Virus record (IMG/VR): IMGVR_UViG_3300044527_000814
Span: 7,650-71,649 of that record
Length of the DNA: 64,000 bases
Source of the DNA: a virus
Strand: one strand, 5' to 3'
This document shows positions 1 to 24,016 of the stretch, one piece after another. Under the pieces are notes generated by a model. That model worked only from the letters and a program-made list of their open reading frames with translations, was not told the origin of the DNA and made no database searches. Numbering within the stretch: position 1 is the first letter of the stretch; each line of letters begins with the position of its first letter. Position numbers and translations under genes: made by a program.

Positions 1-657
1 ACGCGCGCCGCTGGTCAGCAGATCATGGCGCTGGTCATGGCGCAGCCGCAAGGCGCTCGCTCTGAAGTTGTGCGCGCGGCTCTTGAGTCGATCAAGCCGG
101 GCCTACATGCGAAGGTCGATCGCTTGGCTGGCAAGATCGCAGCCGGTGGGATCTCGACGCTCATGGCCTACGAGGAAGCGCTGCGGTTGGCGCTGGCGGA
201 CGTTTTTGTCGATTCTGTCAAGGCACTTGCCATCACCCAGCAGACCGGTCGAACCAGCGATGAAGCTCTTGCGGCGCAGCGGCTGTTTTACGGGGAGCTG
301 CACCCCGCTGGTCTCGGCGGCCTCGACGGCGGGCTCGGCAACGCAGGCCGTGATGCGGCGAACTTTGCGCTTAACCTGCTGCGCTCGGCCGCGTGCTCGG
401 AAGAGGTCAAGACCGCAATCACAGGAGCCATCACCAACTCCACGGCTCGCGCCGCGACGAGCGCAGGACTCGATGTGGCCAAGGGCGTTGCTGCTTGCAG
501 CAAGCTTCCCGGCGCGACGCCTCCTCCTCCTCCTCCTCCTCCTCCTGCACCATCACCTACGCAGCCCGAGCCCAAAGACAACACGACGATGTACATTATC
601 GGAGGCGTTGCAGTGCTCGGCATCGGTGCGGTGCTGTTCTTAGCGCTCAGGAAGTAG
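1..657 (+). CDS. 5'-truncated putative virion membrane protein (poly-Pro linker, C-terminal TM anchor)
   Basis: Frame is open from base 1. Contains AGLGG/GGLGN motifs, a P-rich linker and YIIGGVAVLGIGAVLFLALRK at the C-terminus. Confidence 0.75.
   Translation, partial: TRAAGQQIMALVMAQPQGARSEVVRAALESIKPGLHAKVDRLAGKIAAGGISTLMAYEEALRLALADVFVDSVKALAITQQTGRTSDEALAAQRLFYGELHPAGLGGLDGGLGNAGRDAANFALNLLRSAACSEEVKTAITGAITNSTARAATSAGLDVAKGVAACSKLPGATPPPPPPPPPAPSPTQPEPKDNTTMYIIGGVAVLGIGAVLFLALRK
521..546 (+). repeat. CCT trinucleotide run encoding poly-Pro linker
   Basis: Direct read: ctcctcctcctcctcctcctcctcct. Confidence 0.9.
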
Positions 658-733
658 TACAACTGGTTTTGCTGGGCAATCCAGCGCCGCAGGGCAGCTA
701 CGGCATTCGGTTCAACTCTGGAGAAACAAAAAC

Positions 734-2137
734 ATGGATGAGTACGCATTCGACGGTGACGGGCTTGGCGTCGAGACTGACAACCCGATGGAAAGCACGG
801 CATTCGACTACATTCCGTCTGGCGACAGCCCGTACGGCGAAGGTGCTCTGACTGAGACGGATGCTTCTCCGTACGCGCTTGATTACAACGGCCCTGAGAC
901 GCACGACCCCGGCATGGGACCCGGTATGGTGCAGACCGACTACGGCGCGCACCCTTGGGGCACCGGCGCGGGCGGCGGCTACCGTCCGATGTCGCAGTCT
1001 CGCACCGACGATCAGCCGCTTGGCTCGACCGAGGCGCAGCGTAGGCTGGGCGTTCAGCAGCCGTCGAACGCGGCGATCGACCCGGAGACGATCTACGACC
1101 GCCAGTCGTACGAGTACGCCTCGGGTGATACCGTCGGCGCAGGTATCTTCGATATGCCGGAGGGCGTGACCTGGAACGCCAACGACGGCGTCTTCGCCAA
1201 CAACTATGCGATGCCCGGGTACATGGCCAAGGAGCCCATGATGTACCCCGCGCCGTCTGCGATGATCGATACGCAGACTGGCCTGCCGACGATCGTGCAG
1301 CCGTCGGCCTCTGGCGTGCAGCTGTCGATGGAAGCGCCTCCGGGCACGCCCGTCTACTCGCCGTTCAGGCAGATGACTGCCATCACCAACCGCACGCCGG
1401 TTCCGCGCGTGCCCTACGCGCAGACGCCGCGAGGCATGAGCGGTCTGGGTGCCGTGCCACCCGCTCAGCCTGCCTACGCAGGCCAGAGCGCGGCAGAGGC
1501 TTTTGGAAATCAGGCGGCGATTGCGCTCGTGCGACGCGCTGCGCTGATGAAGACGCCCGGCCGCGAGCGGTTTGTCGCCAACGCCATGTCGGTGCTCGGT
1601 CCGCAGCGTTCGGCTGCTGCTGAGGCAGCGGTTCGCAAGCTGATGGCGATGGGCTACCCGTCCACGCACGTGGTCGAGCAAGTCTTTGCTCACTGCATTA
1701 TGCACGCGGTTGTGGGCGAGGTCATGCGCGTCGCTCGTACCGGCAGGCCCGTTCCTCCGGCGCAGTCGGTGGTTCGCGCGGCGACGACAGTTGCAGCGCA
1801 GGCTGGTCCCGCGCCAGATCTGGCGGACGCCGCGCAGCGCGTGGTTCCGGCGCTTGTGAACCAGCAAGCGGCGCGCGCCGAGCTTGCCGCATTCAGTAGA
1901 TCTCTTGTTCGTCCGCAGGTCCGCGCGACGCTCGGCAGCGACGGGCTTGAGGGCATGGGCAGCCTTGGTGACGGGGCGGCTCCCGAACCGGGTACGCCTA
2001 CGGCTCCGCGCGGTGAGCGCTCTGAGGGAATGAGCACCGGCGCCAAGGTCGCGATCGCTCTTGGCACGGTAACCGCGGTCGGCGCTGCCTGGACGTATCG
2101 AGACAAGATCGCGAAATGGTTTGGAGGAGACCAATGA
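734..2137 (+). CDS. putative virion protein, 467 aa, acidic N-terminus and C-terminal TM
   Basis: GGAGA upstream. Motifs GDGLG, MSGLG, LEGMG. C-terminal hydrophobic helix KVAIALGTVTAVGAAW. Confidence 0.8.
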   Translation: MDEYAFDGDGLGVETDNPMESTAFDYIPSGDSPYGEGALTETDASPYALDYNGPETHDPGMGPGMVQTDYGAHPWGTGAGGGYRPMSQSRTDDQPLGSTEAQRRLGVQQPSNAAIDPETIYDRQSYEYASGDTVGAGIFDMPEGVTWNANDGVFANNYAMPGYMAKEPMMYPAPSAMIDTQTGLPTIVQPSASGVQLSMEAPPGTPVYSPFRQMTAITNRTPVPRVPYAQTPRGMSGLGAVPPAQPAYAGQSAAEAFGNQAAIALVRRAALMKTPGRERFVANAMSVLGPQRSAAAEAAVRKLMAMGYPSTHVVEQVFAHCIMHAVVGEVMRVARTGRPVPPAQSVVRAATTVAAQAGPAPDLADAAQRVVPALVNQQAARAELAAFSRSLVRPQVRATLGSDGLEGMGSLGDGAAPEPGTPTAPRGERSEGMSTGAKVAIALGTVTAVGAAWTYRDKIAKWFGGDQ

Positions 2138-2451
2138 CACAGCCTTCAATGACCGCAGTGATGGGCCTTGAAGATCAAGCTCGTCACACGCCGCCTTCGT
2201 ACAGCCCCCAGATGACAATGTACGGTCATCAGATGGCTGGCGCTCCCGTCACGGGAATGCCGCCGGGCGCTGCGCCGTATCCGCTTTATGGGGTGCCTCA
2301 CGCACTCGGCTCGGACGAGGTCGTGCCGTTCTATCGTCGCTGGTGGTTTGCCTTTGCAAGCGGCCTCGTCGTGGGAGGCGCGGTTGGCGTTGCCGGTACG
2401 ATCTATCTCCAGCGCAAACTCGCGCCTCAGGCGCGGCGTGAGAACACATGA
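2134..2451 (+). CDS. small membrane protein
   Basis: ATG overlaps upstream stop (ATGA) after GGAGGAG. TM WWFAFASGLVVGGAVGVAGTIYL. Confidence 0.75.
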   Translation: MTQPSMTAVMGLEDQARHTPPSYSPQMTMYGHQMAGAPVTGMPPGAAPYPLYGVPHALGSDEVVPFYRRWWFAFASGLVVGGAVGVAGTIYLQRKLAPQARRENT

Positions 2452-2837
2452 GCTACCGTCCTAACAGGCTCACCATCGGCTACGAGCGCGCGAAGGTTCT
2501 GAACCCGTGGGTCTTCGCGGATCTGCGTCAGCCGCAGCGCATGCGCGGGTTCGTGTCCCCGCTCGTGTACCAGACCTCGCCGCCGACGGTGTACCACCCG
2601 AACCTGTCGGGCCTTGGCACCGAAGAGGTCGGCGCGGAGCAGCCCGTTACGCAGCTGACCGTCGAAGAGGAGCAGCGGGCGATTCGGCGGGGGACCTTCG
2701 AGCTTCAGCGGCAGTCGGCCAAGCTCGCAAAGCGCATGGCATTGCTGACTGCCGTGACAGGTTTGGTAGGCGTCGTGGTGTCGGTCGCGGGGCTTGCCAT
2801 TACTTACGCGGATCGTCGCCAGACGAACAGGAGCTAG
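2448..2837 (+). CDS. small membrane protein with MSY start and LSGLG motif
   Basis: ATGA coupling with upstream gene; C-terminal TM. Confidence 0.75.
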   Translation: MSYRPNRLTIGYERAKVLNPWVFADLRQPQRMRGFVSPLVYQTSPPTVYHPNLSGLGTEEVGAEQPVTQLTVEEEQRAIRRGTFELQRQSAKLAKRMALLTAVTGLVGVVVSVAGLAITYADRRQTNRS

Positions 2838-2840
2838 GTC

Positions 2841-3572
2841 ATGTCGTACTCGTTTGCGCTCAGTGGTGGCAGTAGCGATGGCGCCCCTCGCAGGTTTGCC
2901 GCTGGTCAGCTCGTAACTGCGCGCTTCCAGCCCCTGGGCACGACGGCTGCCAACACGAATACCGTGAAGGCGCAGCTTGAAACGCGTATGGCGTCTCTGG
3001 GCATCTTCAAGACGCCGGAGTACGTTGGATGGGGTAAAGACGACAACAACGGGCTCTTTGTCTACAGGGCCGAACTCAAGACTGGGCAGTTCACGGCTCA
3101 GCAGGTCGCTGACAAGATCAAGGCAGCGATGCCTGGCCTCGATACTGCGCTCGGGGCAAAGCGCTTGAACTTCCTGACGATCCGTCACCCGACCCCAAGC
3201 GGCGAGGTCGTGGAGATGGTCCCAGAGGCGCCGTCTATCGCCCCAGACAGCACTTCGGGTGGCGGCGCGACGACAGGCGGCGGCGGCGCGACGACAGGCG
3301 GTGGCGGCGGCGGCGCCGCGCAAGAAGAAGAGAACTTCTTCACGAGGAAGTTCGGCGGCGTGCCGGTGTGGGCGATCGGCGCTCTATTGATGACGCTTGG
3401 CGGGGGGCTTGTGCTCTTCGCGCCGCGGAAGAAGCCTGCGTCGGTGGCGAAGAACCCACGGGACAGACTGCCGCTGCGGGACCGTTCGCGAATGAGGCGC
3501 CGTGGCCAGGAATTGAGGAAGGTGCCATGGGGGACCTTGGGGTACACTGTCGTGCCAGGAAAAAAAGGCTGA
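2841..3572 (+). CDS. tail-anchored virion protein (paralogous domain family A, Gly/Thr linker, TM, basic tail after AKNP)
   Basis: AGGAG RBS. VTARFQP...YVGWG motif shared with 10224 and 10886. EENFFTRKFGGVPVW precedes the TM. Confidence 0.8.
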   Translation: MSYSFALSGGSSDGAPRRFAAGQLVTARFQPLGTTAANTNTVKAQLETRMASLGIFKTPEYVGWGKDDNNGLFVYRAELKTGQFTAQQVADKIKAAMPGLDTALGAKRLNFLTIRHPTPSGEVVEMVPEAPSIAPDSTSGGGATTGGGGATTGGGGGGAAQEEENFFTRKFGGVPVWAIGALLMTLGGGLVLFAPRKKPASVAKNPRDRLPLRDRSRMRRRGQELRKVPWGTLGYTVVPGKKG

Positions 3573-3581
3573 GGATTGATC

Positions 3582-4478
3582 ATGACCTACCATCTCGGCA
3601 CAACCGCTGCACCAAAGACGTACGGCTACTGGCGTGTCGACGATCCCGCCACAGTCGCCAAGCTTCGCGAGGCAGGAATCGAGATTTCCGAGCTACCGGG
3701 CGCGGAAGACGCTATCGCAACGCGGACACCTTCGTTCGTTCTGGTCACGGATCCAGGTGGCGACCGCATTGCAGTTACGGCGCGTTCTAGCTGGGGGGTC
3801 AGGCCTGGATTCGTTTTTTCAGGAGGCGTTGCAGCATTCAGGGCAAAACTGGCCAAGACGTCGGACGTGCCTGTCGTGCCACCGGGAACCATCGACCGCC
3901 TGTCGTTACCAACTTCTGCCGATATCCCGCCGACCATCGGTGGGCCCGCGAGAGGAGCGGTCACTGTAGGTGGTCGCAAAGTCGGAGTGCCCGTCCCTGC
4001 CGACCAGGCATCGCTTCCGAGCAGTGACCGGCTCCAGGTTCCTGCCGTTCCAGAGCTTCCGCCCATCGTATTTGACCCGTCCCTTGAGCGCGCAATCGAT
4101 CGTGCTGTAGGTCGCAAGAGCAGCAATACAGGCCTGTACATCGGGCTGGGCGTTGCAGCGGTCGCGCTGTTCGGCCTTGGCTACTTGGCGATCAATCGTC
4201 AGAAGGCGCCGAAGCCGCTGACGAGTAATCGGCGCGTGATTTACGCCCTCCCCGAGCGCAAGGCGTACCCGATCACATCGCGCGAAGACGCCATCAACGC
4301 GACGAAGCGCTTGAAGCAAGGGCGTGTGCGGAGCGAGGCAGACGCGAATCTCATCATCGCGGCGATCGAGCGCGAGCACCATGACATCTGGCGCGAGTAC
4401 CTTGAGGGGTATCCCGTGTCGCGGATCATGAGGAGCAAGCGCAAGGGGCTGGCTGCGCGGCGAAGGACACTGAAGTGA
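3582..4478 (+). CDS. membrane protein with a small domain after LTSN and a basic C-terminus
   Basis: GAGGA RBS, MTYHLG start, TM LYIGLGVAAVALFGLGYLAI. Confidence 0.75.
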   Translation: MTYHLGTTAAPKTYGYWRVDDPATVAKLREAGIEISELPGAEDAIATRTPSFVLVTDPGGDRIAVTARSSWGVRPGFVFSGGVAAFRAKLAKTSDVPVVPPGTIDRLSLPTSADIPPTIGGPARGAVTVGGRKVGVPVPADQASLPSSDRLQVPAVPELPPIVFDPSLERAIDRAVGRKSSNTGLYIGLGVAAVALFGLGYLAINRQKAPKPLTSNRRVIYALPERKAYPITSREDAINATKRLKQGRVRSEADANLIIAAIEREHHDIWREYLEGYPVSRIMRSKRKGLAARRRTLK

Positions 4479-4689: not shown

Positions 4690-5781
4690 ATGAGCTACAC
4701 AAACAGGGTCGCACTTCTGGGTGGTGGGTACGGGCTGGGATCAGACGTTGCGTCTGCCTCCAGCACGAGTGGGTGCAGCACGGCGGGCGTCTCGGGCATC
4801 GACGCTCAGCTCGTCGCTGAGATGATCCGACTGAGCGAGGGTAAGCTCGTCGAGGTCCGCCACCCAAACATCAAGTTCACCTCCAACCGCGTGCACCCGT
4901 ACCTGGCGGTCGCGGCTCGGGACGCGCTGCTGAAGGCGGCGGAGAGCGGAGAAATCCGCATCAACTCCGCGCTCCGCACCGTGGTGGACCAGTACATGCT
5001 CCACAAGGGCTGCCCTGGCGCGACAGTTCCGGGCGGCTCGAACCACGAGTCAGGAAAGGCCATCAACGTGAGCAACTGGCCCGATCGCCAGGGCGCGCTC
5101 CGTGCAGCTGGTTTCTCTCAGCCACTCGGCACGAACCAGGCCTACTTTGAGGTTCCTGGCGAGGACCTGCGCAAGCTGAGCGTGAAGGCGTTCCAGAACC
5201 TCTGGAACCTCAATAACCCGACCGACCAGATCGGTGCCGATGGAGTGGCGGGTCCTGCCACGCTCCAGCGCATTGCCAAGGCGCCCGTTGCTGGGTTCGC
5301 GAACTCGACGGTCGCCCCGGTCGCGCCAGTTGAGAACATGAGCATCGCGCCGCCCGCGCCCGGGGAGACTGAGAACCCAGTCGAGCCTCGCCGTGCCGCT
5401 CCTGCCGCCGCCGGTAATACGGGCAAGACTGTACTCATCACGCTCGCGAGTGTCGGTGTGGTCGCCGTTCTCATCAAGCTCGCCAGCCGGGGCGGTCGCG
5501 GCAAGACGCCTGCGCCGCGGCTTGCGCAAAACCGGAGCCGCAGTAGCGCGCCGCGTAGGAACCCGACCACCTACGTAGTTGAGCCTGAGTGCGCACATTG
5601 TGGTGCGCCCCTGGGCGAAGGCGTCACCGGAGTGCGCGAGATGCGCGAAGGCGACAAGCTCGGAGAACGCGGTCTAAACGACGACGAGATTCCCGAGAGA
5701 TTCCAGGACGCTGCGGCACATGCCCACCCTCGCCAGGCGATCAAGCGATGGGGCACTTGCAGGGACTGCCGGGACTACTGA
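4690..5781 (+). CDS. M15-like peptidase fold (apparently degenerate) + peptidoglycan-binding domain + TM + Cys-rich tail
   Basis: INSALRT...Q and SNHESGKAINV resemble the M15 SxHxxGxAxD motif. AFQ...ADGVAGPAT resembles PG_binding_1. TM, then RRNP and CxxC...CxxC. Confidence 0.7.
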   Translation: MSYTNRVALLGGGYGLGSDVASASSTSGCSTAGVSGIDAQLVAEMIRLSEGKLVEVRHPNIKFTSNRVHPYLAVAARDALLKAAESGEIRINSALRTVVDQYMLHKGCPGATVPGGSNHESGKAINVSNWPDRQGALRAAGFSQPLGTNQAYFEVPGEDLRKLSVKAFQNLWNLNNPTDQIGADGVAGPATLQRIAKAPVAGFANSTVAPVAPVENMSIAPPAPGETENPVEPRRAAPAAAGNTGKTVLITLASVGVVAVLIKLASRGGRGKTPAPRLAQNRSRSSAPRRNPTTYVVEPECAHCGAPLGEGVTGVREMREGDKLGERGLNDDEIPERFQDAAAHAHPRQAIKRWGTCRDCRDY

Positions 5782-5843: not shown

Positions 5844-7712
5844 ATGAGCTACAGCAATCGAGGCATGGGCGCGCTGTCGGGGAAGGGGTTCTCGACTTCG
5901 AAGGGCAGTTCTACGACTGTGGCGACCACCGGCACGACGACCTCCAAGTCGACTACGACGACGCCAGCCATCAAGACCACGACGGCGACGCCCGAGGTCC
6001 GGCTTAGCACTGCGCAGTCAACGGCCATGACGCTTGGGCCGATGCAGGCGGATCAGGCTGCGATCGACGCGAAGAAGGAAGCGGCGCGCGCCAAGGCAGC
6101 CGAGATCAACCGACTGTACGGTCGCAACAACGGCGCGAAGGCGGAGTCTGGTGCGAGGATTGCGGCGGCGGCTGAGCAGGCAGCTGCCGATCGGTCAGCT
6201 GCCGCGTCTTTCGCATCTGTCTTGGCTGCTGAGTGCACAGGGATCTTGGCGCGCGACGCGTCGCTGCCGAAGTGGGAGCCGCCACCTGCGCTCATTCCCG
6301 CGGGAGCGTTTGTAGCGTACGTCGCAGCGGTCGTGAAGTGGGACGATGCTGTGGCTGGGACTCAACCTTGGGTCAAGCTGCTCAGGAGCTTGCAGAACCC
6401 AGGCCCCGATTACCAGGCGCGCATCAACCGTGCTGCGGATAGCAAAACAGCATATGGAAAAGACCCGAGAAACTATAAACCAAACCCTTCAAATCCAGAA
6501 ACAGTAATCATTGACTTGGCGCCGTGGTTCAATACCCCTGACGGAAAGCTCTGGAAAGCAATAGCGGACGCCAACGAACCTGCCGTAAAAGGAACAGTGA
6601 ACGACCCAAAGGGTCGTGTGGCCTCCGTGTCTCCCATTTGGTTTCCGAGAGACGGAGACGCCAGTTCGCGCGGTGCAGTTGTGCTCGTTGTCTCTCTTAG
6701 CAAGGAGATGAACACAGAGGCGCTCACAGCATGGATGCAAGCGCACTATTCGCGCGCGATGTACGACAACAACATGGCGAAGGGCGGAGTGGTATATCCA
6801 ATCCCAGTTCTCCTTTCTGCCAAGTCCTGGGCTGACAAGGACGTGAACGCGCAGATCGCGGACGCCGTCGAGCGCGTGCGTCGCTCGCTGGGTCAGCTGG
6901 CGACTGCTTTCAAGGTCAACTTGCAGGGTGTCACGGCGCTCAAGAAGAAGCTCGACAACTCTGCGCTGAAGCTCGGGAAGGTGGTAGGCGAGATCCAGAC
7001 GGGCATCGCGACTGCGGCTGGCGTTCAAGCGTTTGTCGCGGAGGTCAGCGGCGGCGTGCCGTCGATGGTCGCGGAGCTTGATTCGCTGCCCGCTACTGTT
7101 ACCGAAATCGCTCAACTGGAAGGAGCGCGCGCGTCGTTGGCAAATGCTGCCAAGGCTATCGATGCGCTAGAGGCGAAGATTGCGAAGGATGCGGCGTCGA
7201 TTCAGCTTGCGATCTCCCGGGGGCCTACAATCGGTCAGGAGATGACCGCCTTGAAGGCTGAATACACTCCCGCCAAGGTTATTGCCATCGCCATGCCTGA
7301 GGCCGAGGCGCTGGCCAGTCGCGCCCCCTTTGCGGAACAGGCGGAGAGGGTGCGCTGCTCTGCAATGTCGATTTTGCAGCAGCAGGCAGGCAACGCGTTC
7401 GACGCTCTTCAGCGCGCCACGGCCTCGGCGGTTCAGATTTCCGCGACGCTCGACGTGCCAAGCCTGACGGCGTCGTTGGGCGCACTGGGCGGGCTCAGTA
7501 GCGCAGTCGCGGAGCTGCGCGCGGCGGTTGCCAGGGCGAGCGCTGCGCTCGACGCCAAAGAGAAGGAGCTTGGTCTCGACTGGTACTCGCGGAACTTCTA
7601 CGGCCTCCCTGTCTGGGCGTGGGGAGCCGGGGGCGCCGCGCTACTTCTCGGCGGTGCCGTCTTCGTCCGTATGCGCAAGAAGAAGGCTGCTGCGTCAGCC
7701 GCTGCGAAGTGA
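5844..7712 (+). CDS. large Ala-rich helical/coiled-coil protein with C-terminal TM
   Basis: GGGAG RBS, MSYSNRGMG start, heptad-like C-terminal half, FYGLPVW then TM and RKKK. Confidence 0.8.
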   Translation: MSYSNRGMGALSGKGFSTSKGSSTTVATTGTTTSKSTTTTPAIKTTTATPEVRLSTAQSTAMTLGPMQADQAAIDAKKEAARAKAAEINRLYGRNNGAKAESGARIAAAAEQAAADRSAAASFASVLAAECTGILARDASLPKWEPPPALIPAGAFVAYVAAVVKWDDAVAGTQPWVKLLRSLQNPGPDYQARINRAADSKTAYGKDPRNYKPNPSNPETVIIDLAPWFNTPDGKLWKAIADANEPAVKGTVNDPKGRVASVSPIWFPRDGDASSRGAVVLVVSLSKEMNTEALTAWMQAHYSRAMYDNNMAKGGVVYPIPVLLSAKSWADKDVNAQIADAVERVRRSLGQLATAFKVNLQGVTALKKKLDNSALKLGKVVGEIQTGIATAAGVQAFVAEVSGGVPSMVAELDSLPATVTEIAQLEGARASLANAAKAIDALEAKIAKDAASIQLAISRGPTIGQEMTALKAEYTPAKVIAIAMPEAEALASRAPFAEQAERVRCSAMSILQQQAGNAFDALQRATASAVQISATLDVPSLTASLGALGGLSSAVAELRAAVARASAALDAKEKELGLDWYSRNFYGLPVWAWGAGGAALLLGGAVFVRMRKKKAAASAAAK

Positions 7713-9482: not shown

Positions 9483-9495
9483 CAGGAAGTATTTC

Positions 9496-16750: not shown

Positions 16751-16791
16751 CAGCCATCGCATGCGACTCAGAGTAAAGGCATCGAGGCAAC

Positions 16792-17130
16792 ATGGCCCTC
16801 TATAGCGTCTGGGACTGGAACAAGAATCTCTACCGCGTCTACTCGGACGCGCTGCCGGTCTCTGTCGGCGTCGACCCGGACCCGCCGCGTCCGATGAATG
16901 TGCATCTGCTCGGTGCTGTGCCCTTCGAGGGGTGTAAGGTTCTCCCGCATGGCACGCGATTCATGGGCCTCTCGCACGTTCCGCGCGGTGAGATCGTACG
17001 GGATGCGAGCGGATTGCGAGAAGTCATGGGTCTCGGGTCAGAAGCGGGCGGGAGGACCGGGATCGGTTCTGTTGCCCTGGTCTGTGTCGGGCTTGCCGTA
17101 GGATACTTTGCAGGCAGGCTGATCTCATGA
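16792..17130 (+). CDS. small tail-anchored protein
   Basis: GAGG RBS; VMGLGS then TM. Confidence 0.7.
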   Translation: MALYSVWDWNKNLYRVYSDALPVSVGVDPDPPRPMNVHLLGAVPFEGCKVLPHGTRFMGLSHVPRGEIVRDASGLREVMGLGSEAGGRTGIGSVALVCVGLAVGYFAGRLIS

Positions 17131-17819: not shown

Positions 17820-18332
17820 ATGGCACTGTCCTACATCAAGAGCAACATGCGAACTGCGCTCGCGTACCGCGAGTCGCCTGGCATGCTGCGCGCCAATGGC
17901 GGTGTAGAGGCCTTGACGGTCATGAACCCGGGGCTGGTCCCCCACCTGACCTCTGCCGATGTCCGGCAGAGAAACCTGAAGGAGAATGCGATGAGCTACG
18001 ACCTTGGGGCACTTTTGCTCCAGAATAAGAAGAAGACCGGCAAGAAGAAGCCCGCCAAGAAGAAGGGCAAGGGCAAGGGCAAGCCGAGCAAGACGATGAC
18101 GAAGATGCAGCGCGCCGCGAAGAAGCGCGTTACCAAGGCGCTTCGCGCGATTGAGAAGGCCAGGACCGCAGCGAAGCGTCGCCTGAGCAAGGCGACGACC
18201 AGCAAGGGCAAGGCGAGGGCGCGCAAGACCAGCAAGAAGGTCATGCGCACGCTGAATACCCGTCTCAAGAAGGCCCGCGCTGCGTTCAAGAAGGCGTCGA
18301 AGAAGGCGAAGACCAGCAAGAAGAAGGGATGA
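17820..18332 (+). CDS. highly basic (Lys-rich) putative DNA-condensing core protein
   Basis: K/R/A-rich C-terminal two thirds. A second start (MSYD) follows AAGGAG at about 17990. Confidence 0.7.
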   Translation: MALSYIKSNMRTALAYRESPGMLRANGGVEALTVMNPGLVPHLTSADVRQRNLKENAMSYDLGALLLQNKKKTGKKKPAKKKGKGKGKPSKTMTKMQRAAKKRVTKALRAIEKARTAAKRRLSKATTSKGKARARKTSKKVMRTLNTRLKKARAAFKKASKKAKTSKKKG

Positions 18333-18338
18333 GTCATC

Positions 18339-20588
18339 ATGCCCATGATGGACAACCCGAGCGGGCCTAAAAAGAAGAAGCCTACTAAGGCTCTTCGTGC
18401 GGCCCAGGCTCGCGCAAAGAAACTGTCTAACGAGGCCAAGAGGAAGTCGAAATCCCTCAAGGCTTTGCAGAAGCGCGTGAATGAAGCGGCGAAGCGCGCC
18501 AAGAAGCTTGCTGGGAAAAAGCCCACGAGCAAAAAGGGCGCTGCCCAGCCGAAGAAGACCAGCGCTTCACGCACTTCGCGTGGCATGTACGCGCAGTACT
18601 TGCCGACGCTTCCGAGGACCTACGGGAGCAACCTCCCGGACTGGGCCAAGGAGCTTGGCTACACCGGCTCGACGGTGCCGATCGTGTCGCTCCCGACGAC
18701 GCCCCGCATGGGCTTCGACGGCAAGGGCACCGGCTTCGTAATGTACGACAAGAACGGAAACCCAGTCCTCGACAAGGATGGCAATCCCAAGTACGAGCCG
18801 ATTCCTGCGTGGCAGCGCACGTACAGCATGGAGCTGTTCGGTCAGCCTGCTTCTGAAGCGCCGAAGAAAAAGGCGACCAAGAAGTCGGCGAAGGCGCAGT
18901 TCACCGAAATCCTTGGGCGCGCTGCCGAGGCGAAGGGGAAGTGGCTGTCTTTGGTCGCGGCTGGAGCGGACCAGGCGAAGCAGGATGCCGCCAAGAAGCG
19001 CTACGAAGACCTCGAAGCGCGAGTTGTGGAGAAAGAGCTGACGACTCTTCTCTATCAAGAAGCCCTCAAGGGCAAATCCACCAACGCCATCCTCAAGTCG
19101 GCGCGCGCCGCAGCGCGCGCAAAGATGGCTGGGGGAACTCCTCCCGCGGCGGTGCAAGCGGGAGTGCAGGCAGCCGCATCGGCCCCGCCCACGCCGCAGG
19201 CTGTTCAGCAGGCTGCGCAGGCGGCGGCGCCTACCGGCGGTCCTCCTGGTGCGAAGTGGACGATGCAGCGTGGTCCCGGTGGTCGCTTCGTCAAGAGGCA
19301 GGTCACCCCGAACGGCAACTACTACGATGATCTGGACATGAACCCCATGGTCATGGCCGCACCCGAAACCGTTTACGCGTACAGCCCTGCCGTCGGTAAG
19401 GATGGACGTCGTAAGGGATTCGAACTTCTCATGTCCGAAGCCGTCCCCGACAAGAACGGCCGTCTGCCCGCTGATGCGGTGACCGTGGTAGTGAGCCCGA
19501 CGGTTCAGTACGCGGTTCTGACGAAGGTCAAGGAAGTTCAAAAGGCAGTCAAGAAGAATGGTAGCGATTTCCTGGAGAGCAACATGGCAAAGCGTGGTAT
19601 GAAGCGTAACCCCCTCGGATCGGATCTCATGGAACTCGGCCGCCCCGTTCTTGGCGCGACCGCAGGCTTCGCGGCGTCGCGCGCGGTCAACGCGCTCGCG
19701 CTGTACGGGCTGTCGAAGACCCAGATGGACCTGTCCAGCGCGGGCGCGCAGATCGGCATCCGCGCGGCAGCCACCGCCGTCGGCGTGCTCGGCACCATGA
19801 CCTTGGGCAACAAGGTGGACATGATCCGCGACAATCGCACGTCGATCGTCACGGGCATGATCCTCAACGTTGCGGAGGTCGCCGTCCGCGCTCTGACGTC
19901 GGAGAAGCTCGCAGCCCCGGACGCGAACCCGTACCTCCGCAACCTCGCCCTCGGCGCGAGCTACTACGACATGTCGCACGCTGGCGCCCCGTACTCCCCG
20001 ATGATGGGCGAGTACGTGTCGCAGTCGCTGAACGGCATGGGCGAGTACGTGTCGCAGTCGCTTAACGGCGGCATGGGCTCGTACATCGCGCAGGCCGCGG
20101 CTGGCATGGGCGAGTACGTGTCGCAGTCGCTCAACGGCGGCGACGGCCTCGGTGAGTACGTCTCCCAGTCGCTCAACGGCCTTGGCGAGTACGCCGAGGG
20201 CGTTGATCCGAGTGACCAGGAGGGCGTCGACAGCATGATCAACAGCGCGGAGGCCGTCGCGGGTCTCAGCGGGACCGAGGTCATGGCGGCGACCGCTGGT
20301 CTTGGCGCGACCGAGGTCATGGCGGCGACGGCGGGCCTTGGCAACGTCCAGGGCATGAACCGCGGCATCGTCACCCGTCGCGGCATCTACAACTTCTTCA
20401 CGCAGCCCGTCTCGGCGAGCGGCGGTCGTCTCCCCACGGTCTCCATCGAAGACGCGCCGATGCCCGTCGTCGGCATGGGTCCGGCTCGTCCGGGTGCAGT
20501 GCCCATCGATGACCAGGTCGCGACCCCCGAGGGCCGTGGCTACGCTGGCGGCATCTTCGGCCGTCACATCTTCGGGACGATGGTCTGA
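18339..20588 (+). CDS. 749-aa putative scaffold/core precursor (basic N-terminus, hydrophobic middle, repeated GEYVSQSLNG)
   Basis: Lies immediately upstream of the putative capsid gene, has strongly biased codon use and many G[LM]G motifs. Confidence 0.75.
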   Translation: MPMMDNPSGPKKKKPTKALRAAQARAKKLSNEAKRKSKSLKALQKRVNEAAKRAKKLAGKKPTSKKGAAQPKKTSASRTSRGMYAQYLPTLPRTYGSNLPDWAKELGYTGSTVPIVSLPTTPRMGFDGKGTGFVMYDKNGNPVLDKDGNPKYEPIPAWQRTYSMELFGQPASEAPKKKATKKSAKAQFTEILGRAAEAKGKWLSLVAAGADQAKQDAAKKRYEDLEARVVEKELTTLLYQEALKGKSTNAILKSARAAARAKMAGGTPPAAVQAGVQAAASAPPTPQAVQQAAQAAAPTGGPPGAKWTMQRGPGGRFVKRQVTPNGNYYDDLDMNPMVMAAPETVYAYSPAVGKDGRRKGFELLMSEAVPDKNGRLPADAVTVVVSPTVQYAVLTKVKEVQKAVKKNGSDFLESNMAKRGMKRNPLGSDLMELGRPVLGATAGFAASRAVNALALYGLSKTQMDLSSAGAQIGIRAAATAVGVLGTMTLGNKVDMIRDNRTSIVTGMILNVAEVAVRALTSEKLAAPDANPYLRNLALGASYYDMSHAGAPYSPMMGEYVSQSLNGMGEYVSQSLNGGMGSYIAQAAAGMGEYVSQSLNGGDGLGEYVSQSLNGLGEYAEGVDPSDQEGVDSMINSAEAVAGLSGTEVMAATAGLGATEVMAATAGLGNVQGMNRGIVTRRGIYNFFTQPVSASGGRLPTVSIEDAPMPVVGMGPARPGAVPIDDQVATPEGRGYAGGIFGRHIFGTMV
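20005..20190 (+). repeat. 4 copies of GEYVSQSLNG-encoding repeat
   Basis: ggcgagtacgtgtcgcagtcgctNaacggc repeated; the 4th copy has synonymous changes. Confidence 0.9.
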
Positions 20589-20609
20589 TCACCATCAGGC
20601 TATCGAGAG

Positions 20610-20645
20610 AAGGCTGGTGACTCTTTGCGGATCACCGGCCTTTTC
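20610..20645 (+). terminator. putative intrinsic terminator
   Basis: Stem aaggctggtga / tcaccggcctt followed by a short T run. Confidence 0.5.
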
Positions 20646-20737: not shown

Positions 20738-22216
20738 ATGCCCAAGATCGTCGGAACCCGCGAGCGCGTTCATCAGCCGTCAAATCTGTAGGGCGGCCTC
20801 CGCGAGTAATCGCGGATGGAAAATCGGGTGAATTAAACCGTTTCGTGATCCGACTTGCTCAAGGACGTCGACATTGCATGGCTGGCCGGGATCATTGACG
20901 GGGAAGGCTGCTTCTCCATCAAGAGACCGATTCCCAAGAGGAAAACTCCTCACCGGAAAACCAGCTACCAAGTGTGGGTCGTCCTCTGCAACACCTCCGA
21001 GTCAATGGTGAGGCGAGCAGAGAGCATCCTGAAAGACCTGGGAGTCGAGCATCAGCCGATTCGCAAAGTCTGGAAGGGTCAGAGAGCTACCAGGTGGCAG
21101 TTTTGGTTGCACGTCGCTAAGAAACACGACGTGCTCAGGTTGACGGAGGCACTTCTCCCTCACCTGACGGCAAAGAAGACCGAAGCCGAGATTGTTCAGT
21201 GGTATCTCTCGAAGTCGTGTCAGGTGGCGCAGTATCGGACCACAGAACTGGATGCACTGGTTCTTGATTCGATGTCGGCTATCAAGCGAAATGGCGGGGA
21301 AGCCCCTGCGGAGGTACAGAGCGTGCTCCGCGAGGTAATCCCGAGCCAAGCCAGACTTGGGCTCCCAAAAGGAGAGAGTCTGGAAGGCGTAGAGACTAGA
21401 TCGGTGAGTCCCAACGATAATCCGATCCACGAGTGCCCGACTTCCTCAGTCCATTGAGGAAGGTGATATAGTCCGACACTCCGGGGAAACCCGGAGAGCC
21501 AGCATAAACAGCTGGCGTAACTGAATGTCTACGATTCGCTCATCCGCGTGGATGGCTCCACCAACCTCCGCCAGACTCCGCAGAACGGCTTCGGCGCGAT
21601 CTCCGCGCGCACGCAGCTCTTCAGCCGTCAGGCCTCGGACATCGCGGTGACGAACCTGGCGACGCCGGGCCAGTTCACCTCGGACCAGACCTTCGTCACG
21701 CTCGCGATCCGCGTGTGGACGTATTTCCGCGTCAACTTCGAGGCGGAGATCCAGTCGGGCCAGCGTCTCCTGAGCCCGGAGAACCTGACGGACCGCGTCG
21801 CGCGCGTCCACAAGCTCTACCACCAGTCGCAGAACCAGCTGTTCTTCGACTTCACGGCTGGCGACAAGCCGCAGATCCAGCACTTCACGGCGTACACGCC
21901 GTTCGCGGGCGGCCTTGACGGCTTCTTCGCGGACAGCCGCCTGCCCCGTGCGAACAACGGCGTTCCGACGAGCGGTGCGCTTATGCGCCTCGCCCGTCCG
22001 ATCCTCATCCCGCCTCGTCAGGGCTTCCGCGTCTTCGCGACGATCTCGCCGATCGGCGAGCAGGTCGGCGCGTCGCTCACGGAGCAGCTGAACGGCCTCC
22101 GCGACGACAACAACGGCCCGTTCCCCATCTCGGGCGCGTCGGTCCAGGGCGCGGACAACATCGAGAAGGACATCAAGTACCTTATCGATGGTATCCACTC
22201 CCGCGACGTTCTCTGA
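20738..22216 (+). CDS. putative major capsid protein (jelly-roll type), spliced join(20738..20780,21528..22216), 243 aa
   Basis: Splicing gives MPKIVGTRERVHQP-F-YDSLIRVDG in frame with ORF 21548..22216. QPxYD and TNL...GQ...F motifs, beta-rich, very strong codon bias. The fold is inferred. Confidence 0.7.
20781..21527 (+). mobile_element. group I self-splicing intron, 747 nt
   Basis: 5' exon ends in U. P1: GCCGU pairs with GCGGC (20793-20797) with a U.G wobble. P10: GUAG (20788-20791) pairs with exon CUAC. Q-like aatcccgagccaag, R gtagagacta, S gatatagtcc. Terminal G at 21527. Confidence 0.92.
20855..21457 (+). CDS. intron-encoded single-motif LAGLIDADG homing endonuclease
   Basis: WLAGIIDGEGCF motif; ...LLPHLTAKK. 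Confidence 0.9.
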   Translation: MLKDVDIAWLAGIIDGEGCFSIKRPIPKRKTPHRKTSYQVWVVLCNTSESMVRRAESILKDLGVEHQPIRKVWKGQRATRWQFWLHVAKKHDVLRLTEALLPHLTAKKTEAEIVQWYLSKSCQVAQYRTTELDALVLDSMSAIKRNGGEAPAEVQSVLREVIPSQARLGLPKGESLEGVETRSVSPNDNPIHECPTSSVH

Positions 22217-22430: not shown

Positions 22431-22450
22431 CTGTGCCAAGGAGATAGCGC

Positions 22451-23338
22451 ATGTCCGACGATATTCCGCTCAATGTTCCGCCTCAGGTCGCGTCGTTTCT
22501 TCGCAACCTGAACGACAAGCAGGCTCGCCAGCAGTCGCAGTTCGAGGCGCTCGCGAAGGCGTACCGCGAACTCCGCACGCGCTCGGAAGGCGACAAGCTG
22601 GAGATTCAGCGCCTGGGCGAGTGGGTTCGTAAGGCCGCCAGCCGCATCCGCTACATCGAGGACATCCCGGGCAAGCGCGTGCCCTACACGATGAACTTCG
22701 AGGTCAGCATCCCGTCGGTCGCGAACGCCTCGAACCCGGTCGGCGCCCGCATCCGCGCCCAGCAGCAGGTCTCGATGGACGGCCCCTTTGTCGGCACGAT
22801 GCTGATGGGCGCCTTCCGCATGCAGACGTTCAGCCTGGGTCCGGTTGAAGAGTACCCCAACCTCCCGCCCCTTGGCGAAGAGGTGCTCACGCCTCTCACC
22901 GGCCGCTTCCGCCCCGTCGCCTCGACGGCCGACGCCTTCCAGGGCGCGTACATCGGCCCCGGTGCGGGCGCTGCTGCTACTGACGTCAACACGTTCCGAC
23001 CCGGCGAGATTGACTTCCTCTGGGAGTACGCCGACGAGGGCACGGACCGCGAGCGGCAGAACCAGATCCCGACCCCGAGCCGGTATCTCTTCAGCGAGAA
23101 CGACCGTCCGTTCTACCTCGCCGTGAGCGATTTCTTCGAGCGCGGCTCGACCATCGCGTTCTACCTCACGCTGCTCCGCTCGGTCGGCCTCGCCGAGGTG
23201 AACTTCAGCAGCGGCTGGAACGGCATCACCGAGTCCCCGATCGCCCCTGTCGATCGCGTGCTCCTCGCGCTCGGTGGCACCGTTACGCTGTCGATCCACG
23301 GATACAAGATCCTCCAGGCGCAGTCTCCGGCCGTCTGA
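22451..23338 (+). CDS. putative second capsid (jelly-roll) protein with N-terminal coiled coil
   Basis: AAGGAG RBS. Beta-rich with VSMDGPFV and a terminal LSIHGYKI strand. Follows the MCP. Confidence 0.55.
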   Translation: MSDDIPLNVPPQVASFLRNLNDKQARQQSQFEALAKAYRELRTRSEGDKLEIQRLGEWVRKAASRIRYIEDIPGKRVPYTMNFEVSIPSVANASNPVGARIRAQQQVSMDGPFVGTMLMGAFRMQTFSLGPVEEYPNLPPLGEEVLTPLTGRFRPVASTADAFQGAYIGPGAGAAATDVNTFRPGEIDFLWEYADEGTDRERQNQIPTPSRYLFSENDRPFYLAVSDFFERGSTIAFYLTLLRSVGLAEVNFSSGWNGITESPIAPVDRVLLALGGTVTLSIHGYKILQAQSPAV

Positions 23339-23350
23339 TAGGCTGGCCGA

Positions 23351-24016
23351 ATGGACACTCGCTCCCAGCCTGGGTCACCACTCCCACAGGGGAGCCCAGA
23401 TGCGCACGCAACCAACGTGCGCGTCACGCAGGGCTTCTTTGCCCAACTGCCGCCAAATGCGATTGCCTATTTCAATAGGCAGTACATCTCGGAGTACCCG
23501 CGACCGATTCAGGTCGGTCCGGGGACGGCGTATCCGCGCAACGTGCCGATCCTTGACCTGACAGTGCCTGTCGGCAGCGTCATCGTCATTCGCGACGGCA
23601 TCTTCACGGCGTACCAGCAGAACGGCCTCGACATCAACGACACCGTGCCTGTCGACAACAGGCGTCTGCTCACGTACGTCGCGTTCGGGCTGGAGATCAA
23701 TGGCAAGGGCCAGACCGACAGCCAGAACAACGTCTACGGCACGGGCGGCCTGCTCGCGCGCGAGGCAGCTGGCGGCAACGTCACCGTCGGTCCGGGCGCA
23801 CAAGTCCCCTCAACGGTAAAGGTCTATGGCGGCAGTATCATCTCGGGTCCGCCCGGGACGTTCGCGCTCTACGCCATGCCGCAGCAGCGCATTCGCGCGT
23901 CTGCGTGGATCGTTCGGCCGCCGCCGTTTGAGATCCGTCGGTTCGGCTTTGACATGAGCGGCTTCCTGCTCTCGAAGGTCGGATTCGAGCGCTTCAAGCT
24001 CGGGTTCAATTACTGA
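23351..24016 (+). CDS. putative minor capsid/penton-like beta protein
   Basis: Beta-strand pattern (LTVPVGSVIVI...FDMSGFL) and position in the capsid cluster. Confidence 0.5.
   Translation: MDTRSQPGSPLPQGSPDAHATNVRVTQGFFAQLPPNAIAYFNRQYISEYPRPIQVGPGTAYPRNVPILDLTVPVGSVIVIRDGIFTAYQQNGLDINDTVPVDNRRLLTYVAFGLEINGKGQTDSQNNVYGTGGLLAREAAGGNVTVGPGAQVPSTVKVYGGSIISGPPGTFALYAMPQQRIRASAWIVRPPPFEIRRFGFDMSGFLLSKVGFERFKLGFNY

What the first reader, a model, noticed from the sequence alone, without database searches (positions are those of the whole stretch)
1..24016. Unusually large tailless, membrane-containing virus architecture
Seen: at least 24 kb of co-directional genes, about 15 membrane-anchored proteins, basic core-like proteins and three adjacent 220-300-aa beta-rich proteins, with no HK97 capsid, portal, terminase or tail. 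Established: characterised PRD1-like and sphaerolipovirus-like prokaryotic viruses have genomes of roughly 10-35 kb. Inference: this is a >64-kb member with jumbo-phage-like accessory content, possibly a new lineage.
Basis: inference. Interest (0 to 1): 0.8.

Follow-up and report, generated by a model that had tools for sequence, protein, structure and literature searches.

The report
Large dark virus with jelly-roll proteins
This is half of the genome of an uncharacterised large freshwater bacterial virus that has no recognisable tailed-phage genes but carries many membrane proteins, very basic proteins and two highly conserved proteins predicted to fold like small virus coat proteins, so it may represent a new kind of big tailless virus.

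Summary
The window is the last 64 kb of a 71.6-kb viral contig, rated 51% complete. From the start of the window to about 26.8 kb it holds one co-directional block of genes with almost no Pfam or PHROGs matches. The block has 13-15 membrane-anchored proteins and Lys-rich basic proteins. It also has three adjacent 221-295-aa genes, the first interrupted by a 747-nt group I intron with a LAGLIDADG gene (joint confirmed by intron-less homologues).

- AlphaFold models of two of the three (pLDDT 63-69) are single beta-sandwiches. Their best matches are jelly-roll capsid proteins, with the SPV1 coat protein top or near top, but the scores are weak (Z 6.2-8.8). The "vertical" orientation cannot be told.
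- Three 90-100% complete relatives (160, 171 and 298 kb) share the block. They lack six terminase families, the portal and HK97 capsid families tested, and also FtsK and A32 packaging ATPases.

So this is not a PRD1-like or sphaerolipovirus-like member. The best reading (about 0.5) is a new lineage of large membrane-containing viruses, probably of Planctomycetota and related bacteria, with an SPV1-like build: a jelly-roll shell, a membrane and a protein-condensed genome. A very divergent tailed phage remains possible (about 0.2).

The parts
25..657 (+). 210-aa protein with a C-terminal membrane anchor
   Evidence: KD maximum 2.45 at residue 190 of 210. Only weak sub-threshold Pfam matches, PRIMA1 and DUF3185 at E about 0.004.
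734..2137 (+). 467-aa acidic core protein (pI 4.9), conserved in G001-G003
   Evidence: 33-53% identity to orthologues. Pfam, PHROGs, a PDB profile search and the ESM Atlas gave nothing.
2116..4478 (+). Four small membrane-anchored proteins (w2116-2451, w2448-2837, w2841-3572, w3582-4478); three start MSY or MTY
   Evidence: No Pfam or PHROGs hit for the two that were scanned.
4690..5781 (+). 363-aa protein with an MSY...GLG N-terminus and one membrane segment; possible cell-wall peptidase
   Evidence: Weak PHROGs endolysin hit, E 0.0044. The SNHESGKAINV motif seen resembles the VanY/M15 motif; that resemblance is recalled, not tested.
5844..7712 (+). 622-aa protein with an MSY...GMG N-terminus, a Ser/Thr-rich region, a helical region and a C-terminal anchor
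7727..8500 (+). 257-aa core protein with one membrane segment
   Evidence: Orthologues in G001-G003 at 36-42% identity.
8526..12028 (+). Four leader-motif, membrane-anchored proteins: w8526-9482, w9496-10215 (PG_binding_1 and SSGGR repeats), w10224-10868, w10886-12028
12028..15654 (+). 1208-aa Ala/Pro/Lys-rich protein that starts MPKIVG, has an N-terminal hydrophobic segment, and is not conserved as a whole in relatives
15668..17130 (+). 360-aa and 112-aa C-terminally anchored proteins; the 112-aa one is a core gene
17127..17696 (+). 189-aa basic core protein
   Evidence: pI 9.7. Found in 14 of 16 related loci.
17991..20588 (+). Lys-rich 113-aa ORF (pI 12.0) plus a 749-aa basic protein, separated by an in-frame stop. 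They are one ORF in relatives. Candidate DNA-condensing or core protein.
   Evidence: The gene always lies directly upstream of the jelly-roll genes.
20600..20641 (+). GC-rich hairpin followed by Ts after the 749-aa gene; terminator-like
   Evidence: Sequence read. A chance-level Rfam hit aligned the hairpin. Not otherwise tested.
20738..20780 (+). Exon 1 of jelly-roll protein 1 (MPKIVGTRERVHQP)
20781..21527 (+). 747-nt group I intron (55% GC) carrying a LAGLIDADG endonuclease ORF at w20855-21457
   Evidence: The 5' exon ends in T and the intron ends in G. Rfam Intron_gpI scored 30.1 bits, E 1.5e-5, below the gathering score of 50. LAGLIDADG_1 E 5e-4; phrog_5046 E 8e-11.
21528..22216 (+). Exon 2 of jelly-roll protein 1 (243 aa when spliced); the most conserved gene of the lineage
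   Evidence: 60-74% identity to G001-G003. 247 homologues. Model. SPV1 coat protein is the top structural match at Z 6.2.
22451..23338 (+). Jelly-roll protein 2 (295 aa): a long N-terminal helix followed by a beta-sandwich
   Evidence: 207 homologues. Model pLDDT 68.5. Foldseek top match SPV1 6oj0_A at E 2.8e-4, with SH1 and HHIV-2 coat proteins in the top 12. VIA Z up to 8.8.
23351..24016 (+). 221-aa conserved protein, not modelled; candidate vertex or third shell protein
   Evidence: Present in 12 of 16 related loci, directly after protein 2. No PDB profile hit.
24208..26764 (+). Continuation of the conserved block: 334-aa acidic protein, 306-aa acidic protein, and a DnaJ-domain protein
42573..43439 (-). 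Amidase_2 plus PG_binding_1 endolysin
55602..57135 (.). tRNA-Arg(CCT) on the - strand beside a tyrosine integrase on the + strand

Best explanation
The window is about half of the genome of a temperate or lytic virus from lake water. It belongs to a widespread, wholly unannotated lineage with genomes of roughly 140-300 kb, probably infecting Planctomycetota and related bacteria.

Window 1-26.8 kb, plus 5 kb upstream, is its particle-building module. I infer the following:
- Two small, very conserved jelly-roll proteins (the spliced 243-aa gene and w22451), perhaps with w23351 at the vertices, form an outer protein shell.
- A dozen or more tail-anchored membrane proteins sit in a virus membrane beneath the shell. 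Several carry cell-wall-binding or cell-wall-cutting domains and serve entry.
- The Lys-rich proteins encoded just upstream condense the DNA into a core. This would explain why no packaging motor of any known kind is encoded.
- A conserved transglutaminase-fold cysteine enzyme and a short N-terminal M-S/T-Y...G-L/M-G motif on many of these proteins suggest leader-directed sorting or maturation cleavage.

Shown: the gene content, the conservation, the splice joint, the motif enrichment and the absence of known hallmark families. Inferred: the shell, the membrane, the core and the cleavage.
For: Virus and size:
- IMG/VR virus record, 51% complete. Relative G001 is 159,872 bp with a 127-bp terminal repeat. 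G002 is 171 kb and G003 is 298 kb.
- Endolysin, integrase and homing endonucleases lie in the flanks.

Conserved module:
- The order basic 749-aa gene, protein 1, protein 2, w23351 homologue holds in 12 of 16 related loci. Protein 1 is in 16 of 16 and protein 2 in 14 of 16; the loci that miss a gene mostly end too early.
- The same order is seen in 3 of the 4 sister-lineage loci printed. Fifteen loci were analysed and 115 found.

Fold:
- Both models are single beta-sandwiches.
- Model 1: Foldseek PDB top match SPV1 at E 2.8e-4, prob 0.98, with SH1 and HHIV-2 coat proteins at ranks 10 and 12. 58 BFVD matches at E <= 0.001; most of the named ones among the 50 rows shown are capsid proteins.
- Model 2: SPV1 is the top match in both VIA searches, Z 6.2, rmsd 3.2 over 125 residues.

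No motor:
- 0 of 4 records matched FtsK_SpoIIIE, Pox_A32, Terminase_6N, Terminase_6C, TerL_ATPase, Terminase_3, GpA_ATPase, TerL_nuclease, Phage_portal or Phage_capsid. Controls matched.
- No canonical Walker A motif lies in any credible ORF of the 71.6-kb contig.

Membrane and entry:
- 13-15 anchored proteins, and a PG_binding_1 domain on one.

Protease and motif:
- C...H...D alignment at 60-69% identity. 2 of the 120 listed homologues carry Transglut_core PF01841.
- ORFs that start M[SAT]Y: 10 observed against 1.0 expected in G000; 14 against 2.1 in G002.

Analogue:
- SPV1 has a jelly-roll shell, a membrane and a nucleoprotein core, and none of its nine ORFs with an assigned function is a packaging enzyme (PMC8459092, whole text).
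Against: - Model confidence is only moderate: pLDDT 68.5 and 62.6, each with a 30-35-residue stretch below 50.
- VIA Z values of 6.2-8.8 fall within what the tool reports as typical for models with no true match. For model 1 the top rows are a virus protrusion domain, PNGase and a peptidase, and cement proteins of tailed phages also appear.
- Foldseek TM-scores are 0.2-0.3.
- No sequence-profile link to any solved capsid protein or to P23-77 VP16/VP17.
- ESM Atlas clusters nearest to protein 2 are labelled mostly Uroviricota, from automatic taxonomy.
- Only one portal family and one HK97 capsid family were searched. The PHROGs scan of 146 further G001 ORFs showed only the top 25 of 97 matched families, so weaker structural hits could be hidden.
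- No particle, lipid or protein data exist.
Confidence: 0.5

Rival explanations
1. It is a very divergent tailed (Caudoviricetes) large phage. Its capsid, portal, terminase and tail genes escape Pfam and PHROGs. The jelly-roll proteins are decoration or cement proteins or fibre domains. The membrane proteins serve lysis or superinfection exclusion.
For:
- Automatic taxonomy of related protein clusters says Uroviricota.
- The jelly-roll matches include cement and turret proteins of tailed viruses: Pam1 Z 8.0, KHP40 Z 7.5, GP4 Z 7.0, HFTV1 Z 6.8.
- Several core proteins of 467-1121 aa have no assigned fold.
- Only 25 of the 97 PHROGs families matched in G001 were visible.
Against: - Six terminase families, Phage_portal and Phage_capsid gave 0 of 4 records even at E 0.1 in six-frame searches, while the controls matched.
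- 20 of the largest G001 proteins scanned singly by Pfam, and 10 by PHROGs, gave no structural family.
- The only P-loop ORFs are helicases, a MoxR AAA protein and a protein beside the primase.
- The one 'minor head protein' hit is an M23 peptidase domain.
- The two jelly-roll genes are the most conserved genes of the lineage, which is unusual for decoration proteins.
- A run of 13-15 anchored proteins is not a usual feature of a tailed-phage structural module (this last point is my own knowledge).
Confidence: 0.2
2. It is a virus with a different, non-icosahedral or enveloped build. A protein-condensed genome is wrapped by a membrane rich in anchored proteins. The jelly-roll proteins act as matrix, spike or fusion components rather than as a closed shell.
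For: - No packaging enzyme was found.
- Lys-rich proteins and many anchored proteins.
- The jelly-roll fold is generic and also found in non-capsid proteins.
- A genome of 160-300 kb would need a very large shell if built from 243-295-aa single jelly-roll subunits (inference).
Against: - The SPV1, SH1, HHIV-2 and P23-77 coat proteins recur in the match lists of both models.
- The gene order small protein then large protein, with sizes of 243 and 295 aa, parallels P23-77 VP16 and VP17 at 173 and 291 aa.
- Very high conservation fits a lattice-forming protein.
Confidence: 0.15
3. It is not a virus but an integrative plasmid-like element, and the conserved block encodes a cell-envelope or secretion structure.
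For: - Integrase, ParB-like and PcfJ-like genes.
- No viral hallmark gene recognised by sequence.
- Contigs are binned into bacterial MAGs.
Against: - No conjugation-type ATPase or FtsK-like coupling protein.
- An Amidase_2 endolysin.
- Homing endonucleases and a group I intron sit in and around the most conserved genes, as in phages.
- IMG/VR holds 11 related contigs as viral.
- The capsid-like folds.
Confidence: 0.07

Closest known systems
Portogloboviridae (Sulfolobus polyhedral virus 1)
   Same: - The SPV1 coat protein is the best or near-best structural match of both models.
- SPV1 combines a single jelly-roll shell, subcapsomer and membrane proteins, a lipid layer and a protein-coated DNA core. 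None of its nine ORFs with an assigned function is a packaging enzyme (PMC8459092).
- This matches the gene inventory here: jelly-roll genes, many membrane proteins, basic proteins and no motor.
   Different: - SPV1 has a 20-kb circular genome and infects a hyperthermophilic archaeon; this lineage has genomes of at least 72-298 kb and bacterial hosts with peptidoglycan.
- No sequence similarity was detected.
- Two distinct large-shell candidates here, against one hexamer protein plus a penton protein in SPV1.
- The match scores are weak.
Sphaerolipoviridae, Simuloviridae and Matshushitaviridae (SH1, HHIV-2, HCIV-1, P23-77)
   Same: - Two adjacent coat-protein-sized genes, the small one before the large one (243 and 295 aa here; 173 and 291 aa in P23-77).
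- Their coat proteins appear in the match lists: SH1 and HHIV-2 at Foldseek E 0.007; VP17 and HCIV-1 at Z 6.8.
- Membrane-rich structural module; cell-wall enzymes encoded.
   Different: - No FtsK/HerA-type ATPase next to the coat genes or anywhere else.
- No profile similarity to VP16 or VP17.
- Genome 4-15 times larger. Known members are 16-19 kb, about 30 kb and 17 kb (abstracts listed).
Tectiviridae and other PRD1-like double jelly-roll viruses
   Same: Tailless membrane-containing concept; membrane-associated cell-wall enzymes (from my own knowledge of PRD1, not tested here).
   Different: The candidates model as single sandwiches of 243-295 aa, not double jelly rolls. No A32/FtsK-type ATPase.
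Jumbo tailed phages
   Same: Genome size, accessory content (helicases, SNF2 with an intein, thymidylate synthase, methyltransferases, sigma factor) and homing endonucleases.
   Different: No terminase, portal or HK97 capsid family detected. A 2026 review of jumbo phages has no occurrence of 'tailless', 'non-tailed' or 'jelly' (term search only).

Membership tests
Sphaerolipovirus-like viruses (Helvetiavirae/Singelaviria: Sphaerolipoviridae, Simuloviridae, Matshushitaviridae) | Two major capsid proteins, each a single vertical jelly roll | tested here: inconclusive
   Both models are single beta-sandwiches with weak matches to SH1, HHIV-2, HCIV-1 and P23-77 coat proteins: Foldseek E 0.007-0.05 and Z 4.8-6.8. 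Orientation in a shell cannot be read from a monomer.
Sphaerolipovirus-like viruses | FtsK/HerA-superfamily packaging ATPase, encoded beside the coat genes | tested here: not met
   FtsK_SpoIIIE and Pox_A32 matched 0 of 4 records. No Walker A ORF in the block or in the contig. P-loop ORFs beside the module in the sister lineage are DnaB, DnaG and a DinG-like helicase.
Sphaerolipovirus-like viruses | Sequence or profile similarity to known coat proteins | tested here: not met
   hhalign of A1 against VP17 and of A2 against VP16 gave probabilities of 0.4 and 0.9%. PDB profile searches were empty. Only P23-77 was compared directly.
Sphaerolipovirus-like viruses | Internal lipid membrane | not testable with these tools
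   13-15 anchored proteins in the block are consistent with one, but no lipid data exist.
Portogloboviridae | Single jelly-roll hexamer and penton proteins related to VP4 and VP10 | tested here: inconclusive
   SPV1 chains are the top match for model 2 (Z 6.2) and the Foldseek top match for model 1 (E 2.8e-4; Z 7.7). These values are within the tool's background range.
Portogloboviridae | Nucleoprotein core and no packaging enzyme | tested here: inconclusive
   No packaging enzyme was found. Lys-rich proteins are encoded upstream. Homology to SPV1 VP1 was not tested.
Tectiviridae / PRD1-like (Bamfordvirae) | [quoted passage not shown] | tested here: not met
   For the two proteins modelled, one sandwich each in 243 and 295 aa. 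Other proteins of the block were not modelled.
Caudoviricetes | Large terminase subunit | tested here: not met
   Six Pfam families in six-frame searches matched 0 of 4 records at E 0.1, and the controls matched. A fold-level search of the core proteins was not possible.
Caudoviricetes | Portal protein and HK97-fold capsid protein | tested here: inconclusive
   Only PF04860 and PF05065 were searched, with 0 of 4 records matching. 30 block or large proteins scanned by PHROGs gave none. The folds of the core proteins are unknown.
Group I intron with homing endonuclease | Exon ends in U, intron ends in G, catalytic core present, and intron-less alleles define the joint | tested here: met
   Joint and end bases. 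The core match to Rfam RF00028 is 30.1 bits, E 1.5e-5, which is below the gathering score of 50, so that one point is weak. An RNA-library contig carries the joint.

The most novel reading that the evidence does not exclude
A deep, previously unrecognised group of giant (up to about 300 kb) membrane-containing viruses of Planctomycetota and related bacteria. They would build a jelly-roll shell and a membrane around a protein-condensed genome with no packaging motor at all. They would sort or mature their virion proteins through a shared N-terminal MSY...GLG leader and a transglutaminase-fold protease. That would make them a bacterial counterpart of SPV1 at ten times the genome size, and the first non-tailed 'jumbo' bacterial viruses.
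Probability: 0.3. Interest if true: 0.9.

Novelty: new variant of a known kind. Interest (0 to 1): 0.78.

Why it matters
All large bacterial viruses characterised so far are tailed. Known membrane-containing jelly-roll viruses of bacteria and archaea are small: 17-30 kb in the records and abstracts seen here. A common freshwater lineage of 140-300 kb with jelly-roll coat candidates and no packaging motor would do three things:
- extend the size range of that architecture by an order of magnitude;
- pose a concrete question of how so much DNA is enclosed without a motor;
- show that current virus-classification markers mislabel a whole lineage.

Hundreds of homologues of three of its core genes were found, and none carries a functional name. 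The lineage also offers testable parts: a splice joint in a coat gene, a leader motif and a candidate protease.

Tried and rejected
- DNA search of the phage collection with w18339-24016: no match.
- Single-protein scans of IMG/VR with the two jelly-roll proteins, and later with two distant relatives: nothing. The alignment-based scans worked.
- PDB profile searches with seven alignments (A1, A2, A4-A8): no significant hit.
- hhalign of protein 1 against protein 2: no significant similarity. Only a short shared N-x-P-T...RP motif was aligned.
- Complex prediction of protein 2 with protein 1: no verdict (score 0.24, mark 0.32). This is neither support nor evidence against.
- ESM Atlas: only unnamed clusters for protein 2, no usable hit for the 467-aa protein, and no stored models.
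- Names of 10 distant clusters of protein 1: all unnamed or 'hypothetical'.
- The PHROGs 'minor head protein' hit (phrog_1067) was followed up. It is a roughly 100-residue M23 peptidase domain that also matches 10 of the 14 control bacterial genomes.
- The 1078-1121-aa P-loop protein was considered as a packaging enzyme. It lies beside the AEP primase and the helicase, and has only a P-loop-level PDB hit at E 0.0045. I read it as a replication protein, not proven.
- RNA evidence for expression: two metatranscriptome runs cover only parts of exon 2 and exon 1. MCP2 had no RNA cover, which says nothing.
- Five literature searches found no description of such a lineage.

Full report
**Where the window lies.** The window is bases 7650-71649 of a single 71,649-bp contig held as a virus record. 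The contig has no terminal repeats. Its estimated completeness is 51%. GC content is 60-66% throughout.

**Checking the observation.**
- An ORF chain on the + strand with high third-position GC runs from contig position about 1.9 kb to w26764, and with few interruptions to w39106.
- Twenty proteins between w734 and w25212 were scanned against Pfam and PHROGs. The only matches were:
  - PG_binding_1 on w9496-10215 (E 1.3e-4, just under the cut-off), with PHROGs endolysin families on the same domain;
  - a weak endolysin hit on w4519-5781;
  - LAGLIDADG (Pfam) and phrog_5046, a family annotated as HNH endonuclease, on w20855-21457;
  - a few chance-level hits.
- Eight of the nine ORFs scanned in the 7.6 kb upstream of the window had no family. 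The ninth had only a chance-level hit at E 0.0099.
- With a 19-residue hydropathy window, 13 of 24 block proteins reach 1.6 or more, mostly close to the C-terminus, and two more reach 1.54-1.55.
- w17991-18332 is 41% Lys+Arg with pI 12.0. The N-terminus of the following 749-aa protein is also Lys-rich.

**The spliced gene.**
- The ORF at w21548-22216 has 247 homologues, most of them about 20 residues longer at the N-terminus.
- Seven fetched homologues all begin MPKIVGTRERVHQPFYDSLIRVDG.
- In the window, MPKIVGTRERVHQP is encoded at w20738-20780 and FYDSLIRVDG begins at w21528. The 747 bases between them follow a T and end in G, have 55% GC, and contain the LAGLIDADG ORF.
- Rfam's group I intron model matches w21240-21496 at 30.1 bits (E 1.5e-5). 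This is below its gathering score of 50, but the conserved core segments align.
- The same endonuclease sits at the same place in two relatives, L011 and L013. A different insertion lies between the two jelly-roll genes in four others.
- In a metatranscriptome run, one contig is identical to the window in 156 of 157 bases of exon 2 and carries the last eight bases of exon 1 directly before w21528. A DNA run holds a diverged intron-less allele. The RNA contig therefore fits splicing but does not prove it.

**Relatives and genome size.**
- The 295-aa protein has 207 homologues at E <= 0.01. The 120 listed are 49-100% identical and none has a functional name. They lie on contigs of up to 114 kb.
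- Alignment-based scans found protein 1 on 11 IMG/VR contigs of 9-298 kb. They also found it on 5 contigs of MAGs labelled Lentisphaeraceae, Planctomycetota, Phycisphaeraceae, Deltaproteobacteria and Acidobacteriota.
- Three relatives are rated 90-100% complete: G001 at 159,872 bp with a 127-bp terminal repeat, G002 at 171 kb and G003 at 298 kb.
- G001 is syntenic with the contig. The block corresponds to G001 44.7-72 kb and the end of the window to G001 about 158 kb. The missing half is therefore mainly the replication region.
- Genes shared by all four genomes are:
  - a 775-865-aa coiled-coil protein;
  - a roughly 185-aa transglutaminase-fold protein (60-69% identity);
  - the 467-aa acidic protein;
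  - w7727, w16792 and w17127;
  - the 749-904-aa basic protein;
  - protein 1 (60-74% identity), protein 2 (53-64% identity) and w23351;
  - the DnaJ protein.

  w24208 has homologues in G001 and G002 only.
- A profile search of 1.84 billion representatives found 98 clusters of protein 1 at E <= 0.001. Ten of these were looked up and all were unnamed or 'hypothetical'.
- A sister lineage, 30-35% identical in protein 1, gave 115 loci in JGI metagenomes on contigs of up to 143 kb. In the four loci printed, the order basic protein, protein 1, protein 2 is the same, and three of the four also have a detectable homologue of w23351.
- Eighteen of the 21 listed public runs that hold the stretch are lake-water or freshwater metagenomes.

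**Folds.**
- Protein 2 (alignment of 38 sequences) gave a model with pLDDT 68.5: a helix at residues 11-65 followed by a beta-sandwich at residues 73-291.
  - Foldseek against the PDB gave one match at E <= 0.001, the SPV1 capsid (E 2.8e-4, prob 0.98). Birnavirus and picornavirus capsid proteins and the SH1 and HHIV-2 coat proteins follow.
  - VIA over 48,161 chains gave a best Z of 8.8 and a flat list of jelly rolls of many kinds, with SPV1 at 7.7 and P23-77 VP17 and HCIV-1 at 6.8.
  - BFVD gave 58 matches at E <= 0.001. Most of the named ones among the 50 shown are capsid proteins, many from CRESS-DNA viruses, with TM-scores of 0.3 or below.
- Protein 1 (the homologue P0121, 97% identical, alignment of 35 sequences) gave pLDDT 62.6.
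  - SPV1 is the top VIA match in both libraries: Z 6.2, rmsd 3.2 over 125 residues.
  - Foldseek gave nothing at E <= 0.001, with HHIV-2 chains at E about 0.05.
- The tool states that Z values of 7-8 are common for models with no true match. The safe conclusion is 'single jelly-roll-like sandwiches whose nearest solved neighbours are mostly virus coat proteins'. Membership in any family does not follow from these scores.

**Hallmark genes.**
- Six-frame searches of G000-G003 found none of the following at E 0.1 (E 0.01 for FtsK): FtsK_SpoIIIE, Pox_A32, Terminase_6N, Terminase_6C, TerL_ATPase, Terminase_3, GpA_ATPase, TerL_nuclease, Phage_portal and Phage_capsid. Every family matched in some of the 14 control genomes.
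- The largest G001 proteins are an AEP primase, DEAD and UvrD helicases, an SNF2 helicase with an intein, a MoxR AAA protein with its DUF2201 partner, a HATPase protein, thymidylate synthase, a PAPS reductase and a transposase. Seven large proteins have no family.
- 146 further G001 ORFs were scanned against PHROGs in one call. Of the 97 families matched, the 25 shown are partition, integration, methylation, nuclease and lysis functions.
- The contig itself has no canonical Walker A motif in a credible ORF.
- In the sister lineage the P-loop genes beside the module are DnaB, DnaG and a DinG-like helicase.

**Other features of the block.**
- Many of its proteins begin M-S/T-Y and carry G-L/M-G within the next 2-20 residues. 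ORFs that start M[SAT]Y number 10, 7, 14 and 13 in G000-G003, against 1.0, 1.9, 2.1 and 3.6 expected.
- The conserved roughly 185-aa protein aligns with an invariant Cys, His and Asp in the order typical of the transglutaminase core. Two of its 120 listed homologues carry PF01841.
- I propose that the motif is a leader or cleavage signal and that this protein is the processing enzyme. This is inference only.

**Comparison with known viruses.**
- P23-77 (17,036 bp) encodes ATPase, VP15, VP16 (173 aa) and VP17 (291 aa) in that order. The small-then-large order and the sizes are similar here, but the ATPase is missing and profile comparison finds nothing.
- SPV1 combines a jelly-roll shell, subcapsomer and membrane proteins and a nucleoprotein core. 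None of its nine ORFs with an assigned function is a packaging enzyme (PMC8459092, read in full). That is the closest architectural analogue to the inventory here, at a tenth of the genome size and in an archaeon.
- Five full-text searches found no description of a comparable bacterial lineage. A 2026 review of jumbo phages contains none of the words tailless, non-tailed or jelly (term search only). Supplementary files could not be consulted.

**Verdict.**
- The reading 'large tailless membrane-containing virus, possibly a new lineage' is the best available explanation at about 0.5.
- 'PRD1-like or sphaerolipovirus-like member' fails the ATPase and sequence tests.
- A very divergent tailed phage (0.2), a different enveloped build (0.15) and a non-viral element (0.07) remain possible.
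- The decisive work is fold prediction of all core proteins and a look at particles.

Noticed in passing
w2448, w2841, w3582, w4690, w5844, w8526, w9496, w10224, w10886, w17991; also w39834(-) and w63409(-): A recurrent N-terminal motif, M-[ST]-Y followed within about 20 residues by G-[LM]-G. It is strongly enriched in all four genomes (10 ORFs observed against 1.0 expected in the contig). It also sits on two M23 peptidases outside the block.
   Followed up: partly
w12028 and w20738; L119:14499, 15309, 17798: The 1208-aa protein and the spliced jelly-roll protein share the N-terminus MPKIVG. In one sister-lineage locus, several separate ORFs start MAKLTNV or MPKIENV like their jelly-roll protein.
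   Followed up: no
w18330-18340: An in-frame stop separates the Lys-rich 113-aa ORF from the 749-aa ORF. In G001-G003 the orthologue is one ORF that starts MAYN. This could be read-through, a real split or a sequencing error.
   Followed up: no
contig 5597-6211 (L001), upstream of the window: A roughly 185-aa protein with a Cys-His-Asp pattern, 60-69% identical across the lineage, with 316 homologues. Two of the 120 listed homologues carry Transglut_core.
   Followed up: partly
w55602-57135: A complete tRNA-Arg(CCT) gene lies 375 bp from a tyrosine integrase gene. The integrase is on the 5' side of the tRNA. This is a likely attachment region and was not analysed.
   Followed up: no
w19950-20200 (within the 749-aa protein) and w9800-9950: Short peptide repeats: GEYVSQSLNG about five times in the 749-aa protein, and SSGGR about five times in the PG-binding protein.
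   Followed up: no
L024:7265-10486 (G001): The SNF2-family helicase is interrupted by an intein with a LAGLIDADG domain. G001 also has a PAPS reductase gene inserted between the two jelly-roll genes.
   Followed up: no
w62014-62682(-), w40297-40911(-), w32153-34635: The virus encodes a sigma-70 family factor, an MT-A70 methyltransferase and two GT4 glycosyltransferases.
   Followed up: no
L055-L134: A sister lineage with 30-35% identity in protein 1 keeps the same gene order. It is common in JGI metagenomes (115 loci) on contigs of up to 143 kb.
   Followed up: partly
window:20600-23400 in public runs: The stretch occurs at 43-100% of sampled words in 18 DNA runs, 16 labelled lake-water metagenome and 2 plain metagenome, from 2020-2024. 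A diverged intron-less allele is present in one DNA run.
   Followed up: partly
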